A stretch of 64,000 bases of DNA from Elusimicrobiota bacterium (GCA_028718185.1 JAQUMH010000001.1:31186-95185), one strand, 5' to 3'. Positions 44,239-62,425 are shown, counted from the stretch's first letter. Program-made: numbers and translations. Notes: generated by a model not told the origin, from the sequence alone.

Positions 44239-44352
44239 AATCGCGAAGCGAGGAAGAAATTTTCGCAGAGCATAGATTTGCGACTACGCTCTCAAGAGCA
44301 AATCTCAGAGCGAGTTGGTGCCGAGCGACTCAAGAAAATTTACTTCTGAGCG
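44239..44352 (-). repeat. Intercistronic repeat element, diverged B-like copy (atpD-atpC spacer)
   Basis: Shares termini AATCGCGAAGCGAGGAAGAAATTT... and ...AAATTTACTTCTGAGCG with B copies; internal AGATTTGC/GCAAATCT stem replaces AATTTGC/GCAAAT stem of B1/B2. Confidence 0.55.
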
Positions 44353-45704
44353 TTTACTTCGTCTATTGTCCCAACCATATAAAAAGCTTGTTCGGAAATT
44401 GCGTCGTGTTTTCCTTCTATAATTTCTTTAAATCCTCTTATTGTTTCCTTCAGCGAAACATATTTCCCCTCTCTACCTGTAAATTCTTCTGCAACAAAAA
44501 ACGGCTGGGATAAAAATTTCTGGATTTTTCTGGCACGGGATACAACAATCTTATCATCATCAGAAAGCTCGTCCACACCCAAAATTGCTATTATATCCTG
44601 TAAATCCTTATATCTCTGTAAAACCTTTTGAACACCTCTGGCAACCGAGTAATGCTCTTCTCCTAAAATCTTTGGGTCAAGTATTTTTGAAGAAGAATCT
44701 AACGGGTCGACTGCAGGATAAATACCCAACTCAACTATTTGTCGAGATAGAACTGTCGTAGCATCAAGATGTGAGAATGTAGCAGCAACACCGGGGTCCG
44801 TTAAATCATCTGCAGGCACATACACTGCCTGCACAGATGTAATAGAACCGTTTTTAGTTGATGTTATTCTTTCCTGAAGCGCAGCCATCTCAGTCTGCAA
44901 TGTGGGCTGATACCCGACAGCAGAAGGCATTCTGCCTAAAAGCGCTGAAACTTCACTGCCCGCTAAAACATACCTGAATATATTATCTATAAACAAAAGA
45001 ACATCCTGTCCTTCGACATCCCTAAAATATTCGGCTTGTGTCAATGCGGATAGTGCTACACGAAATCTTGCACCGGGCGGTTCGTTCATTTGACCAAAAA
45101 CCAAAACAGCTTTATCAATAACTTTAGAACGTTTCATTTCAATCCAAAGGTCATTACCCTCGCGGCTTCTTTCACCGACACCGCCAAATACGGATACACC
45201 ATTATGGTGAATTGCGACATTATGTATAAGTTCCATGATAACTACCGTTTTACCTACACCCGCCCCGCCGAAAAGTCCGATTTTACCGCCTTTCTGATAT
45301 GGACATAAAAGGTCGATTACTTTTATTCCGGTTTCAAATATTTCAGGTGTAGTTTTTTGTTGAGTAAGTAAAGGTGCAGGAGCGTGTATTTCTTTGTAAA
45401 TTTCCGATTTAATCTCGCCTTTATGGTCAATCGGTTTCCCGAATAAATCCATAACCCGTCCAAGACAAGCTTGTCCTACCGGTACTTTTATATGTTCACC
45501 TGTACTAATTGCCTCCATTCCTCTTGCAAGACCATCCGTAGGTGAAAGCGAGATACATCTTACTGTGTCGTCACCTATGTGGGCAGCAACTTCCAAAACA
45601 GCATCTTTAATTTTAATTTCGCTGTAAATTTTAGGAAGCCTACCTTTTGGAAATTCGCAATCTATAACCGGACCAATTACCTGAACAACCTTACCTTTAT
45701 CCAT
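44340..45704 (-). CDS. atpD: ATP synthase F1 beta subunit
   Basis: Walker A GGAGVGKT, strongly conserved beta subunit sequence. Confidence 0.97.
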
Positions 45705-45812
45705 AATTTATACCTTATGATGATTTTTTAACACCTATTACATTGATTAAAACATATCCCTATTAACTAAAATCTGTGTAATCTATTTTTTAATCTGCGT
45801 AATCAGACACTC

Positions 45813-46655
45813 TTACGCTTCACTCGCATTTACTATTTCCGTCAATTCTTTGGTTATCTGTTGCTGGCGAAGTTTATTTAAATAAAGTGATAGACCATCT
45901 ATAAGTTCTGATGCATTTTTGGTTGCATTTTCCATAGAATTTCTTCTTGCTGCTATTTCCGAAGTATACGCATTAATGAGAATCCTAAAAAACTCTGATT
46001 TTACATATCTACTGAAAAGTTTATCTAAAATAATCTCTTTTGACGGTTCATATATATAATCATATTTTAGTTCATCTACAGGTACTTTTTCTATAGGAAG
46101 TATCTGTTTTATAACAATCTGTTGAGAAAACAGCGATTTATATTCCGCATATATTACATTAAACCTTAAAAGTTTATTAAAAAAAAATAACTTTGTAATT
46201 TCATCTGAAATGATTTCCGCTTGATTGGAAGAAAAATTTTTAAATACATCAAAATAATCATGATTTATTTTTAGCCCGTTCCTCCTGAAGAATTCCCTGC
46301 CTTTTTTTCCTATAACGGAAATATCCAATTCAGTTTGTGGTTTTGATTTTATAAATTCAAAAGTTTTTTTTATTATATTGGTATTATACGAACCACAAAG
46401 TCCTTTTTCTGATGTTATTACAAGAAGCCCTTCGTTATTTGTTATGCCGGCTTCTAAAAACGGATGTGACTTCCCTGTTTTCTTAAGCAAATCAAATAGC
46501 AACTGTTGGATTTTTTGTGAGTAAGATTTTGTTGAATTTATTTGTTGTTGTAATTTCTGAAACCTTGCGGCAGAAATCATCTGCATCGCCCTGGTTGTTT
46601 TCTGTATTGATTTAGTTGATTTTATCTTTTTTCTTATTTCCCTTAAAGTCGCCAT
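45813..46655 (-). CDS. atpG: ATP synthase F1 gamma subunit
   Basis: MATLREIRKKIKSTKSIQKTTRAMQMISAARF N-terminus and C-terminal NASEA. Confidence 0.9.
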   Translation of the reverse strand: MATLREIRKKIKSTKSIQKTTRAMQMISAARFQKLQQQINSTKSYSQKIQQLLFDLLKKTGKSHPFLEAGITNNEGLLVITSEKGLCGSYNTNIIKKTFEFIKSKPQTELDISVIGKKGREFFRRNGLKINHDYFDVFKNFSSNQAEIISDEITKLFFFNKLLRFNVIYAEYKSLFSQQIVIKQILPIEKVPVDELKYDYIYEPSKEIILDKLFSRYVKSEFFRILINAYTSEIAARRNSMENATKNASELIDGLSLYLNKLRQQQITKELTEIVNASEA

Positions 46656-46791
46656 AATAAAAAATTACTTCTGCTGTCATTGCGAGAGCCAATTTATTGG
46701 CTCGTGGCAATCCTGTCTTAGACGGACTACATTTTACGAGATTGCTTCGCTAACGCTCGCAATGACAAATTACGAGATTTTTCAATATACA

Positions 46792-61015: not shown

Positions 61016-62142
61016 AAACCTATTGTTTTTACAATTTTTTTCAAATCCGGCTCCATAATTTTAGGCTTTATTGCAGATTTTATCGCTCTATCCGGATCTT
61101 TAAGTCCATGTCCCGTAAGAGTGCAAACGATTGTAGTTTGTAGTTTTTGGTTTGCAGTTCGTGAACCCATAAACGCATGAACTCGTGAACGATATTTTAT
61201 AAGCCCGGCTACCGATGCAGCAGATGCCGGCTCTACAAAAACTCCTTCAAGAGATGCAAGTAACTTGTATGCTTTTAGAATTTCAGTATCTGTAACTATA
61301 TCAATAACTCCCTTTGATTCATCCCTCGCTTCTTCTGCTTTCTTCCAACTAGCAGGATTTCCTATTTTTATTGCAGTCGCTATCGTTTTAGGATTTTTTA
61401 TTGGTTTTCCTTTAACAATCGGTGCAGCACCCGCTGCCTGAAAACCCATCATGTGAGGCAGTTTATTAGTTAATAGTTCATTGTTCATAGTTTTTTGATT
61501 TTTCTCTGAACTCTGAACCCTGAACTCTGAACTGTATTCCTTATATCCCTTCCAATATGCTGTTATATTTCCTGCATTGCCAACTGGGATAAAATGGTAA
61601 TTAGGCGCTTTACCTAAAAAATCAATTATCTCAAAAGCAGCAGTCTTTTGTCCCTCAATACGATAAGGATTTAATGAATTTACAAGCGTGATGGGATATT
61701 TTTCTGTAATTTCGAGAACTATTTTTAACGCATCATCAAAATTGCCTTTTAACGCAATAACCTTTGCTCCATGCATCATCGATTGTGAAAGTTTACCGAG
61801 CGCAATAGAACCGTCCGGTATTATAACAACACATTTCAATCCTGCTCTTGCCGAATATGCAGCAGCAGATGCAGCAGTATTACCTGTTGATGCACAAATC
61901 ACCGCTTTGCTACCCTCTTCAACAGCTTTAGAAATAGCCATCGTCATTCCACGGTCCTTAAATGAACCGGTTGGATTTGTACCTTCAAACTTAAGATATA
62001 TATCAACGTTTATATTAAGATATTTTTCTAAATTTTTTGCTCTCAAAAGCGGCGTATTGCCTTCGTAAAGAGTGACAACAGGCATCTTGTCCATTACCGG
62101 CAAATATTTTCGATACCTTTCAATTATACCTTTATAAACCAT
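61012..62142 (-). CDS. thrC: Threonine synthase
   Basis: PLP-dependent fold with [14 protein letters not shown] lysine motif. Confidence 0.9.
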
Positions 62143-62157
62143 ATATAAACCTTAAAG

Positions 62158-62240
62158 CGTTCATGTGTTCACGTGTTGATGTGTTCAAATATTAATCATA
62201 AATGCGTTCACGTGTTCACATGTTCATATGTTCAAATGTT
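62158..62240 (-). promoter_or_regulatory. Array of about 8 degenerate TTCAYRTG units upstream of thrC
   Basis: GTTCATGTG, TTCACGTG, GTTGATGTG, TTCAAAT, GTTCACGTG, TTCACATG, TTCATATG, TTCAAATG in tandem beginning 16 nt upstream of thrC start. Confidence 0.35.
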
Positions 62241-62317
62241 AATCGCAAAACAAGTTACATATTTTATCTTCTCTTCATCGCGAAGCGAGAAACAAACCTT
62301 ATCCACGCTTAATCGCG

Positions 62318-62425
62318 AAGCGAGGAAGAAATTTCTGAAGAGCCTGAATTTGCGACTTATTTTTTCCAGGAGCAAATGTTAGAGCGACCACAAGGGAGCG
62401 TCTCGAAGAAATTTGCTCCCGAGCG
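62318..62425 (-). repeat. Intercistronic repeat element, copy B2 (hom-thrC spacer)
   Basis: Near-identical to B1; abuts hom stop codon; preceded at 62277-62295 by an extra partial copy of the CATCGCGAAGCGAG terminus. Confidence 0.65.

What the first reader, a model, noticed from the sequence alone, without database searches (positions are those of the whole stretch)
44239..62425. Family of hairpin-bearing repeat elements positioned exactly at stop codons inside operons, with compensatory substitutions
At least five copies (44239-44352, 48310-48450, 53395-53507, 60010-60100, 62318-62425) share termini resembling ATCGCGAAGCGAGG at one end and CGAGCG(AT) at the other. A1 and A2 differ by paired changes that preserve stems: GTCCCGC/GCGGGAC versus GTTCCGC/GCGGAAC, and CCCCGACG-TAA-CGTCGGGG versus CCAGC-ACAG-GCTGG. 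The B copies likewise keep a stem, AATTTGC/GCAAAT versus AGATTTGC/GCAAATCT. Every copy abuts or overlaps the stop codon of the upstream cistron (atpD, atpH, ilvB, thrB, hom), splitting gene pairs that are usually adjacent. This suggests a REP/BIME-like or MITE-like element acting as an RNA structure (mRNA stabiliser, processing site or intra-operon attenuator).
Basis: seen in the sequence. Interest (0 to 1): 0.7.

Follow-up and report, generated by a model that had tools for sequence, protein, structure and literature searches.

The report
Small mobile repeats at operon stop codons
Five copies of a small non-coding, hairpin-forming mobile repeat (a new family of the ERIC/Correia/RUP kind, from an uncultivated Elusimicrobiota bacterium) sit exactly at the stop codons of ATP-synthase and amino-acid-synthesis genes; it is a tidy new example of a known kind of element, not a new kind of biology.

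Summary
All genes lie on the minus strand. There are five complete elements: A1 48313-48442, A2 53386-53510, B1 44240-44354, B2 59993-60110 and B3 62312-62426. Each starts within -19 to +2 nt of the end of the stop codon of atpH, ilvB, atpD, thrB or hom.

Families A, B and a third family C (seen only in relatives) share their termini and a closing stem. That stem is GC, a UC/UC loop, GGGAG:CUCCC, a bulge, then 5-8 bp.

The source is an Elusimicrobiota MAG. Related genomes carry A, B and C copies at other junctions (atpE|atpF, ilvC|orf, etfB|etfA, aroQ|pepP, the leuS 5' UTR, tRNA clusters). In those relatives the atpD|atpC junction is filled by no element in any of the four examined, and atpH|atpA and hom|thrC are element-free in some of them.

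Many copies are flanked by TA. Removing the element and one TA restores the junction seen in relatives. The A fold has 14 of 32 pairs with compensatory changes.

Best reading: a new MITE-like family that inserts at TA, often the TA of a TAA/TAG stop codon. Within operons it survives only in the sense orientation. Any role as an mRNA structure is inferred, not shown. No transposase partner was found and there is no Rfam match.

The parts
44240..44354 (-). B1, a complete B-family element between atpD and atpC. TA lies at 44355-44356 and 44238-44239. The atpD stop codon (44340-44342) is inside the element.
   Evidence: Sequence. Model R2 scores it 116 bits. The last four AtpD residues, NAQK, are element-encoded.
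44211..44237 (-). Probable relic of the former atpD 3' end. It reads in frame as TVGCGKER* once the 115-nt element and one TA are removed.
   Evidence: Reading of the sequence, and the tail lengths of AtpD in relatives. This is inference.
48313..48442 (-). A1, a complete A-family element between atpH and atpA.
   Evidence: Model R1 scores it 95.9 bits. Fold z = -4.1.
48445..48459 (-). B-type 5'-terminus fragment (ATCGCTCGTAAGTAA) upstream of A1. It encodes the last AtpH residues (I)ARK and the stop codon.
   Evidence: Its last 12 nt (GCTCGTAAGTAA) are identical to the B2 5' end. AtpH C-termini compared.
53386..53510 (-). A2, a complete A-family element that fills the whole ilvB|ilvN spacer. 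The third base of the ilvB stop codon TAA (53510-53512) is the element's first base. The ilvN ribosome-binding site GGGGGG follows directly.
   Evidence: Model R1 scores it 120 bits. Fold z = -5.4. Sequence.
59993..60110 (-). B2, a B-family element with degenerate termini between thrB and ask. The last residues of ThrB, LVSKFL*, are element-encoded.
   Evidence: Model R2 scores it 129 bits. ThrB C-termini. An independent Logan contig, L048, ends inside it.
62312..62426 (-). B3, a complete B-family element between hom and thrC. TA lies at 62427-62428 (part of the hom stop codon TAA) and at 62310-62311.
   Evidence: Model R2 scores it 143 bits. The empty site in relative L050 reads ATGGAATAATC.
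62239..62296 (-). Two solitary 3'-terminus fragments (..CTCGCTTCGCGATGAA and ..TTGTTTTGCGATTAA), spaced 35 nt apart downstream of B3.
   Evidence: Repeat family D3. Sequence.

Best explanation
These are members of a lineage-specific family of non-autonomous mobile repeats (MITE-like, of the ERIC/Correia/RUP kind) in uncultivated Elusimicrobiota. At least three subfamilies (A, B, C) have different interiors but the same ends. The ends are imperfect terminal inverted repeats that pair into the closing stem.

Inferred mechanism:
- A transposase encoded elsewhere moves them into TA dinucleotides.
- When the TA belongs to a TAA/TAG stop codon, the element's first base (A or G) rebuilds the stop. 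The duplicated TA plus the old third base gives the ...ATTAA seen at the 3' end.
- When the TA lies in the last few codons of a gene, stop codons in two of the three frames of the 5' arm end the protein within 22 nt.

Inside operons only sense-oriented copies persist, so the element is co-transcribed. Its RNA folds into a stable multi-branched structure immediately behind the stop codon and just ahead of the next ribosome-binding site. By analogy with ERIC and REP, the inferred role is as a barrier to, or a site of, mRNA decay or processing. The enzyme could be the RNase Y encoded in this window. Such a structure would change the relative stability of neighbouring cistrons.

Shown here: anatomy, copy distribution, empty sites, covariation and orientation bias. 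Inferred: the transposase type and any effect on RNA.
For: **A real repeat family**
- Five copies in the window and none in 1-44 kb.
- The A and B models cross-hit each other through the shared outer stem.
- A third family, C, and a B/C hybrid share the termini.

**Dispersal to non-orthologous sites**
- Relatives with 65-72% AtpG or ThrB identity carry copies at atpE|atpF (L029), ilvC|orf (L050), etfB|etfA, aroQ|pepP and coaD-like|thiD2. Copies also lie in the leuS 5' UTR and inside tRNA clusters.
- The window's sites are overlapping or short junctions in several relatives: atpH/atpA in L031 and L034, atpD/atpC in L031, L034 and L029, and hom|thrC in L050.

**TA flanks and reconstruction of empty sites**
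- L029 reads CCAA-TA|element|TA-AGGG, against CCAATAAGG in L034 and CCAATAAAGG in L031.
- B3 reads GGAA-TA|element|TA-AGCG, against ATGGAATAATC in L050.
- A 5' TA is present in 12 of 18 copies against 36% expected (p = 0.008).

**Other mobile-element signs**
- Element-encoded C-termini.
- Nested mini-hairpin insertions and truncated 3' fragments.

**Conservation**
- Copies within one metagenome, probably from one genome, are near-identical (0.90-0.94). B2 and B3 are 98.9% identical over 89 nt.
- Identity between genomes is 0.68-0.78, against 0.45-0.55 at third codon positions.

**Structure**
- 32 pairs, 96% of cells paired, 14 pairs with compensatory changes, 0 of 500 shuffles as good, and slid controls at 38-49%.

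**Orientation and strand asymmetry**
- 10 of 10 copies at stop codons are sense (p = 0.002).
- Fisher test of stop-adjacency against orientation gives p = 0.0007.
- CGCTC occurs 28 times against GAGCG once. SD-like 4-mers number 22 on the sense strand against 82 on the antisense strand.

**Match to the known kind**
- The description of bacterial MITEs and the orientation-dependent ERIC effect come from the review PMC2229807.
Against: - No transposase gene and no long element with these termini was found in about 309 kb of held sequence, or in the window. The partner and its family are unknown.
- The TA duplication is not proven. The 5' distance from TA to the conserved TCGCTC varies by 0-4 nt. 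A2 lacks the 3' TA. B2 and L042B lack the 5' TA. The 3' TA cannot be told apart from an element-internal ...ATTA end.
- No pair of close strains with a filled and an empty site was available.
- A transposase that targets TA should insert in either orientation. The sense-only pattern at stop codons therefore needs an extra assumption (selection on the mRNA), or a strand-specific mechanism instead.
- Interior hairpins that covary, and whole-element conservation between distant genomes, exceed what a transposase binding only to TIRs would require.
- B copies are no more stable than shuffled sequence.
- The RNA-level role has no direct evidence: no terminator or promoter signal and a weak coupling test.
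Confidence: 0.6

Rival explanations
1. The element is primarily a functional cis-acting RNA module. In this view it is an intercistronic 'punctuation' structure that the host has spread or retained because it sets mRNA processing, stability or translation at cistron boundaries. Mobility would be secondary or ancient.
For: - Strict sense orientation at stop codons.
- Compensatory changes, including whole-hairpin swaps that keep the shape.
- Conservation between genomes above the neutral level.
- Strand-asymmetric CGCUC motifs and pyrimidine-rich single strands.
- Several copies form exactly the whole spacer between a stop codon and the next ribosome-binding site.
- This lineage fills many other intercistronic spacers with unrelated strong hairpins, z -3.6 to -6.0.
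- A B remnant lies at the same hom|thrC junction in L049.
- RNase Y is encoded in the window.
Against: - About a third of copies lie antisense to the flanking genes or next to tRNA genes.
- Copies within one metagenome, probably one genome, are near-identical, as after recent spread.
- The flanking genes share no functional theme.
- Families A, B and C share only their ends, not an interior core.
- Truncated and nested copies look like transposon debris.
- The fold test for a coupling switch was weak.
- There is no Rfam family.
Confidence: 0.2
2. The element is mobilised as folded single-stranded DNA by an HUH/Y1 enzyme (REPIN/RAYT-like, or an IS200/IS605-derived palindrome-associated element), or it is a site for a site-specific recombinase. 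It would insert 3' of a short A-rich target in a fixed orientation without target duplication. That would itself explain sense orientation at TAA/TAG stop codons.
For: - Conserved hairpins whose sequence can change while the shape is kept.
- Strand-asymmetric motifs.
- Orientation tied to the stop codon.
- The apparent 3' TA could be the element's own end, so a target duplication is not required.
- Reiterated 5' and 3' termini, and one-ended 3' fragments.
- True GTAG-type REP clusters coexist in these genomes.
Against: - No common tetra- or pentanucleotide precedes the 5' ends. The flanks read ..ATA, AGA, AAT, TAA, ACA, TAG.
- The two interior hairpins are unlike each other, whereas IS200/IS605 left and right ends are alike.
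- There is no GTAG motif.
- No Y1 transposase was seen in the held sequence.
- In L047 both orientations occur within 4 kb of co-oriented genes.
- The attC core sites RYYYAAC/GTTRRRY are absent (by inspection).
Confidence: 0.12
3. The A element is a ribozyme or a ligand- or protein-sensing riboswitch-like RNA that happens to be multi-copy.
For: - Conserved unpaired junction nucleotides (UUUCGUCAGC, CACUC, UCCGUGA).
- A possible loop-loop pairing, AAUGC with GCAUU, in 8 of 12 copies.
- One copy is the 5' leader of leuS, directly after a TTGCCA-17-TATAAT promoter.
- Other copies lie in ilv and thr operons.
Against: - No Rfam match on either strand, even at E up to 5.
- B and C share the ends but not the A core.
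- Antisense copies exist.
- Gene contexts are unrelated.
- The loop-loop pairing shows no double compensation and is absent from the window's copies.
- The bias towards ilv, thr and atp operons comes partly from how the loci were fetched.
Confidence: 0.04

Closest known systems
ERIC / IRU (enterobacterial repetitive intergenic consensus, ~127 bp)
   Same: - Similar size.
- Imperfect palindrome closed by pairing of the 5' and 3' ends.
- TA at the termini.
- Located in transcribed intergenic regions inside operons.
- Conserved across genera, with no coding capacity.
- Variants carry internal insertions.
- The effect on upstream mRNA depends on orientation and on ribosomes reaching the element (review PMC2229807, citing De Gregorio 2005).
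   Different: - No sequence similarity, and a different phylum.
- Here there are three subfamilies with unrelated interiors.
- The fold is multi-branched with covarying internal hairpins.
- The association with stop codons is much tighter.
- No experimental data exist.
Correia/NEMIS (Neisseria) and RUP (Streptococcus pneumoniae): TA-targeting MITEs linked to IS630-type transposases
   Same: - 100-160 bp non-coding elements.
- TIRs of about 10-25 bp.
- TA target duplication.
- Many copies near or between genes.
- Co-transcribed, and Correia RNA hairpins are processed by RNase III.
- Subtypes differ by internal segments.
   Different: - RUP has an identified candidate partner (IS630-Spn1) with matching TIRs; none was found here.
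- Correia carries IHF sites and promoter elements; none were detected here.
- The TA duplication is only partly supported here.
BOX elements (S. pneumoniae)
   Same: - Modular build: conserved end modules that pair with each other, and variable internal modules.
- No known transposase.
- Stable RNA folds.
- Located close to genes.
   Different: - BOX has repeated boxB units and no TA flanks.
- BOX has no stop-codon association.
- (From my own knowledge of the family; not tested here.)
REP/BIME/REPIN elements mobilised by RAYTs
   Same: - Intercistronic hairpins in operons.
- REPs protect upstream mRNA from 3' exonucleases.
- REPs within about 15 nt of a stop codon can lower translation of the upstream gene (Liang, Rudd and Deutscher 2015, from memory; not retrieved).
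   Different: - REP units are 20-40 nt GTAG-palindromes.
- The present elements are 115-150 nt, lack GTAG and are multi-branched.
- Genuine GTAG-type REPs occur separately in the related genomes.

Membership tests
Bacterial MITE (TA-flanked, ERIC/Correia/RUP type) | Small (<300 bp) and without coding capacity | tested here: met
   The elements are 115-150 nt. Stop codons occur in most frames. They contain only chance ORFs.
Bacterial MITE (TA-flanked, ERIC/Correia/RUP type) | Terminal inverted repeats | tested here: met
   The ends pair as GC, a 2x2 loop, GGGAG:CUCCC, a bulge, then 5-8 bp (about 17-25 nt per arm). This is shared by families A and B, and the outermost pairs covary. Family C keeps the shared termini but has a different outer stem (GCAAYGAAUUUUCU / AGAAAAUURUUGC).
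Bacterial MITE (TA-flanked, ERIC/Correia/RUP type) | Target-site duplication (TA) | tested here: inconclusive
   TA lies on both sides in about 10 of 18 copies. A 5' TA is present in 12 of 18 against 36% expected (p = 0.008). Two reconstructed empty sites match relatives. However, the 5' offset varies by 0-4 nt, and the 3' TA could belong to the element.
Bacterial MITE (TA-flanked, ERIC/Correia/RUP type) | Many copies at non-orthologous sites, with empty orthologous sites | tested here: met
   Five copies in the window. More than 15 further unique copies lie at other junctions in relatives. Empty atpH|atpA, atpD|atpC and hom|thrC sites were seen.
Bacterial MITE (TA-flanked, ERIC/Correia/RUP type) | A cognate autonomous IS with the same TIRs | tested here: not met
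   No pair of termini 0.3-3 kb apart and no transposase domain was found in the window or in about 309 kb of loci. Whole genomes could not be searched, so this is only a weak negative.
Bacterial MITE (TA-flanked, ERIC/Correia/RUP type) | Presence/absence polymorphism between close strains | not testable with these tools
   Only one genome of this species is available. The Logan contigs L048 and P0001 are short, and L048 agrees with the filled state.
REP/BIME/REPIN | A 20-40-nt palindromic unit with a 5' GTAG, often in inverted pairs, linked to a RAYT gene | tested here: not met
   There is no GTAG, and the unit is 115-150 nt and branched. GTAG-type REPs are seen separately in L031 and L033. 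No RAYT was seen.
Any Rfam family (ribozymes, riboswitches, sRNAs) | A match to a curated covariance model | tested here: not met
   Only 6S RNA at 14007-14162 passes the gathering score. At E up to 5 nothing credible falls on the elements; the only overlap is a sub-threshold archaeal C/D-box snoRNA match on the opposite strand of B1.
Integron attC site / cassette array | R'' (RYYYAAC) and R' (GTTRRRY) core sites flanking an imperfect palindrome, each following a mobile cassette ORF | tested here: not met
   By inspection the arms read ..TTGTT..AACAA.., which is the wrong order. The flanking genes are syntenic housekeeping operons.
IS200/IS605-derived palindrome-associated elements | Similar subterminal hairpins at both ends, a fixed 4-5-nt target 5' of the left end, and no TSD | tested here: inconclusive
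   The interior hairpins are unlike each other and no constant 5' target was found. Absence of a TSD cannot be excluded.

The most novel reading that the evidence does not exclude
In this Elusimicrobiota lineage, cistron boundaries are systematically 'punctuated' by structured RNA spacers. These would be either home-grown hairpins made of local oligomer repeats, or these mobile modules. The A/B/C elements would then be domesticated, strand-specific cassettes that deliver a stop codon, a decay- or processing-defining structure (for RNase Y) and an exposed downstream ribosome-binding site. Their sense-only presence at stop codons would reflect function rather than mere tolerance.
Probability: 0.2. 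Interest if true: 0.6.

Novelty: new member of a known kind. Interest (0 to 1): 0.4.

Why it matters
The finding adds a well-defined family of small mobile repeats to a poorly studied, uncultivated phylum. It has three subfamilies with shared ends.

It shows unusually clearly how such elements can live inside essential operons. They land on the TA of the stop codon and rebuild it, or they end the protein within a few codons. They leave the next ribosome-binding site intact, and they persist there in only one orientation.

Practical consequences:
- These repeats break short-read assemblies. Contig L048 ends inside B2.
- They alter the annotated C-termini of AtpD, AtpH and ThrB.
- They give strain-typing markers.

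If the orientation bias reflects an RNA function, the elements would be a natural system for studying how intercistronic structures tune expression within operons in a bacterium that uses RNase Y.

Tried and rejected
- **Whole-species genome scan with a termini-only pattern**. It returned 28 hits, all chance matches in high-GC genomes.
- **Exact look-up of AtpD**: not on record. The ThrB look-up returned only a 1.8-kb Logan contig, not the 970-kb NCBI contig.
- **Rfam**, at gathering scores and at E up to 5: nothing on the elements.
- **By-eye check for a hammerhead-like CUGANGA on the antisense strand**: no GAAA and no Rfam support. Rejected.
- **Viral contigs**: no A copies. The B pattern hit only an unrelated 27-nt hairpin.
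- **Plasmid collection**: no match.
- **Promoter/terminator scan**: no more sites than in shuffles, and none in the elements.
- **Translational-coupling switch**. Three junctions pair the stop-proximal end with the downstream ribosome-binding site. Holding the first 15 nt single-stranded barely raised accessibility (0.29 to 0.34, 0.44 to 0.49, 0.52 to 0.64). Not supported.
- **G-U versus A-C mismatches in stems as a strand test** (about 14 versus 7): too weak to use.
- **Loop-loop pseudoknot in A**: only one-sided changes, and absent from the window's copies.
- **3-bp (TAA) versus 2-bp (TA) duplication**: five copies match on 3 nt and five on 2 nt only. Left open.
- **Search for long elements with the same termini**: none.
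- **Literature search for Elusimicrobia repeats**: nothing relevant.

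
Full report
**1. Checking the observation**

All genes in the 64-kb window lie on the minus strand, so I describe the elements in the minus-strand (mRNA) sense.

- Repeat finding groups them into two families: A (48.3 kb and 53.4 kb) and B (44.2, 60.0 and 62.3 kb).
- The 3'-terminal motif, TCGCGAAGCGAG on the plus strand, occurs 6 times with up to 2 mismatches. Shuffles give 1.2.
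- NCBIfam confirms the flanking genes: atpD|atpC, atpH|atpA, ilvB|ilvN, thrB|ask and hom|thrC.
- Covariance models built later find exactly these five copies in the window, at 96-143 bits. They find none in the first 44 kb.
- All five falling among 17 of the window's 58 gene junctions has p = 0.0014.
- Refined coordinates: B1 44240-44354, A1 48313-48442, A2 53386-53510, B2 59993-60110, B3 62312-62426.
- Each element starts between 19 nt before and 2 nt after the end of the upstream stop codon.

**2. Anatomy**

In RNA sense both families read as follows:
- 5' (A)AUCGCUC, then GGGAG, a one-base bulge and a 5-8-nt arm.
- An interior.
- The complementary arm, CUCCC, then UCGCU-NN-GCGAU-UAA at the 3' end.

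The outermost GC pairs, a 2x2 UC/UC internal loop and GGGAG:CUCCC are common to A and B. Each model therefore detects the other family at 24-35 bits.

The A interior has two hairpins. One varies in sequence. The other is conserved: GUUCCGCU-GAAUG..UA-AGCGGAAC.

The B interior has an invariant AUUUGC/GCAAAU hairpin and several direct copies of the motif CGCUC.

A copies are far more stable than dinucleotide shuffles (z = -5.4 and -4.1). B copies are not (z = -1.0 to -1.3).

There is no Rfam match on either strand, even at E up to 5.

**3. Whose genome, and are there more copies?**

AtpG and ThrB searches place the window in an uncultivated Elusimicrobiota bacterium. ThrB is 100% identical to MDD5686295.1, on a 970-kb MAG contig. 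The nearest other genomes have 65-72% identity.

Loci from relatives keep the gene order ilvB-ilvN-...-atpBEFHAGDC.

Some orthologous junctions in relatives carry no element:
- atpH/atpA overlap in L031 and L034.
- atpD/atpC overlap in L031 and L034, and are 43 nt apart in L029.
- hom|thrC is 47 nt in L050.
- Other relatives have longer spacers at these junctions. Those carry unrelated repeats or, at hom|thrC in L049, a B remnant.

Relatives carry copies at other junctions:
- An A copy at atpE|atpF in L029.
- A B/C hybrid directly after the ilvC stop codon in L050.
- A B remnant at hom|thrC in L049.

One metagenome scan with the A core returned 13 loci, 10 of them unique, from three samples. 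Model searches on these loci added a B copy (aroQ|pepP in L042), a second A copy in L047, and a third family, C. Family C has the same termini but a different outer stem and interior.

The flanking genes are unrelated housekeeping genes: etfB|etfA, coaD-like|thiD2, aroQ|pepP, the leuS 5' UTR right after a TTGCCA-17-TATAAT promoter, and tRNA clusters.

A termini-only scan of the species-representative genomes gave only chance hits in high-GC genomes.

**4. Signs of mobility**

*Non-orthologous positions with some empty orthologous sites* are listed in section 3.

*Near-identity within a genome.*
- L-type A copies from one metagenome, probably one genome, are 90-94% identical.
- B2 and B3 are 98.9% identical over 89 nt.

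*TA flanks.* Many copies have TA on both sides. Removing the element and one TA recreates the junction seen in relatives.

| Copy | Filled site | Empty site in a relative |
|---|---|---|
| L029 (atpE\|atpF) | CCAA-TA\|GCATTCGCTC...TCGAT\|TA-AGGGTATTATG | CCAATAAGGAAC (L034), CCAATAAAGG (L031) |
| B3 (hom\|thrC) | GGAA-TA\|ACGCTC...GCGAT\|TA-AGCG | ATGGAATAATC (L050) |

For B1, removing 115 + 2 nt keeps the atpD frame open for eight more codons to a TAA. That fits the variable tails of AtpD in relatives. A 5' TA within 5 nt is present in 12 of 18 copies, against 36% expected (p = 0.008).

*Debris.*
- A 19-nt mini-hairpin is nested in some A and C copies.
- 3'-end fragments of B, C or A follow complete copies.
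- A 5' fragment precedes A1.

*Coding consequences.* The last residues of AtpD (NAQK), AtpH ((I)ARK), ThrB (LVSKFL) and L042 AroQ are element-encoded. Two of the three frames of the B 5' arm reach a stop codon within 22 nt.

*Caveats.*
- The TA offset at the 5' end varies by 0-4 nt.
- A2, B2 and L042B lack one TA.
- The 3' TA could be part of the element.
- No transposase or long element with these ends was found in the window (all housekeeping genes) or in about 309 kb of loci.

**5. Structure is under selection**

On 12 distinct A copies the RNAalifold structure has 32 pairs.
- 96% of cells are paired.
- 14 pairs show changes on both sides.
- None of 500 column shuffles reaches the observed values.
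- Sliding partners by 1-3 columns drops pairing to 38-49%.

The covarying pairs include the outermost two (G-C to A-U, and C-G to U-A), the GGGAG:CUCCC stem (G-C to U-A), the arm, and the variable hairpin. That hairpin is replaced by unrelated sequences of the same shape, including a conserved bulged U.

B has only four sequences, with six pairs showing double changes.

Between genomes the elements are 68% (A2 versus L029) and 78% (B3 versus L042B) identical. Third codon positions of five flanking genes are 45-55% identical. The elements are therefore either constrained or younger than the genomes' divergence.

**6. Orientation and strand asymmetry**

- Of 12 copies lying in the sense of the flanking genes, 10 start within -19 to +12 nt of the upstream stop codon.
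- Of 7 antisense copies, none is closer than 76 nt to an ORF. All sit in long repeat-rich spacers or beside tRNA genes.
- Ten of ten at-stop copies being sense gives p = 0.002. Fisher's test on adjacency against orientation gives p = 0.0007.
- The sense strand is pyrimidine-rich (38-45% purine).
- It carries CGCTC 28 times against GAGCG once in 13 elements. Half of the window's 22 CGCTC motifs lie in the five elements.
- It carries 22 SD-like 4-mers against 82 on the antisense strand.

A TA-targeting transposase would not choose an orientation. Either selection on the mRNA removes antisense copies from operons, or the insertion mechanism is strand-specific. One inferred reason for such selection is that antisense copies would expose about five SD-like sites each.

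No promoter or terminator consensus lies in the elements. A fold-based test of a termination-coupled switch was weak.

**7. What it most likely is and does**

The anatomy matches the published description of bacterial MITEs. These are 100-200 bp, with TIRs, TA at the termini, and transcripts closed by pairing of the 5' and 3' ends. Examples are Correia, ERIC and RUP (review PMC2229807).

The closest analogue is ERIC. It sits in transcribed intergenic regions, is conserved across genera, and affects upstream mRNA in an orientation-dependent, ribosome-dependent way.

I therefore file the elements as a new MITE-like family with three subfamilies. Membership is qualified: the TA duplication is only partly supported, and the partner transposase is unknown.

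The RNA-level role is inferred from position, stability, covariation and orientation only. Candidate roles are a barrier to decay or a processing site. The enzyme could be the RNase Y encoded at 10681-12237.

Rivals are given separately with their evidence:
- A primarily functional intercistronic RNA module.
- A single-stranded-DNA (HUH/RAYT-type) or recombinase-type element.
- A ribozyme or riboswitch.

**8. Context worth noting**

Many other intercistronic spacers in this window and in relatives are strong hairpins. They are built from a spacer-specific 7-9-nt oligomer in tandem, followed by its inverted complement (z down to -6.0). A further structured repeat, GTCATTGCGAG...CTCGCAATGAC, lies at atpA|atpG.

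This lineage-wide habit makes an RNA-level benefit of structured spacers plausible. It is also the basis of the more novel reading stated in the report.

**9. Verdict**

'MITE-like' holds. 'REP/BIME' does not hold as membership. The RNA function is untested.
- Novelty: a new member of a known kind.
- Interest is moderate. It rests on the clean stop-codon logic, the sense-only bias in operons, and the covarying multi-branched fold.

Noticed in passing
window 55238-55357, 57011-57077, 49515-49594, 45705-45812, 36902-36954, 38656-38720; also L029, L031, L033, L034: Many intercistronic spacers are built from a spacer-specific 7-9-nt oligomer repeated in tandem and followed by its inverted complement. 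Together they form long hairpins (MFE z = -6.0, -4.2, -2.0 and -3.6 for four of them). Relatives show the same style with different oligomers. It looks like a lineage-wide way of making structured spacers.
   Followed up: partly
window 46680-46775 (atpA|atpG); L050:3940-4030: A different structured repeat, GTCATTGCGAG...CTCGCAATGAC, forms a three-way fold. Its spacer, 46656-46791, has z = -5.1. A related copy lies in a relative.
   Followed up: no
window 44170-44215, 51174-51221, 59900-59935, 62150-62245; L050:4060-4090 and 10930-10975: Short arrays lie just upstream of start codons that lack an obvious ribosome-binding site. GUUCCGUG occurs three times before atpC and before the gene starting at 51225. 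(CAC)GUGAAC / UGAACAYR octamers occur before ask and, twice, before thrC. L050 has similar CGAACAAGUGUUCGG palindromes at thrB|ask. These may be operators or RNA-binding sites.
   Followed up: no
window 14007-14162 (-): 6S RNA (Rfam RF00013, 64 bits). It lies between small ORFs that look by eye like ZapB and ZapA (not tested) and a 5-formyltetrahydrofolate cyclo-ligase gene (12250-12828). This is the same neighbourhood as ssrS in E. coli.
   Followed up: partly
L049:4980-9260 and 10921-12899; L050:8245-9993: In two related genomes restriction-modification genes (N6_N4_Mtase, RE_BanI/DpnII-like) are inserted between thrC, thrB and ask. The thr operon seems to be a recurrent landing place for foreign DNA in this lineage.
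   Followed up: no
L038:4590-4610, L041, L047:4870-4890 and 3375-3395: A 19-20-nt perfect mini-hairpin (CTGCCTACCGNCAGGCAGG) is present in some A and C copies and absent from otherwise identical ones. It looks like a tiny insertion that spreads on its own.
   Followed up: partly
L047:4810-4855, 1434-1460, 3417-3445: All three element copies in L047 have the 16-nt palindrome TGTTTCACGTGAAACA next to their 5' end. At 4810-4855 it forms a 30-nt perfect palindrome with an inverted copy of the element terminus (GAGCGAATGTTTCACGTGAAACATTCGCTC).
   Followed up: no
window 9713-12237 and 14789-23729: RNase Y and YmdB genes lie side by side. A complete type I restriction-modification system (hsdR, hsdS, hsdM) is also present, with DUF1828/1829, DUF6978 and a YhcG-like nuclease gene in between.
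   Followed up: no
L031:13700-13890, L033:8848-9109 and 12913-13119: Clusters of classical GTAG-type REP hairpins (for example GTAGTTGCCTGATTTATCAGGCG) and GTCATTCCCGC...GGGAATGAC repeats occur in related genomes. They are distinct from the A/B/C elements.
   Followed up: no
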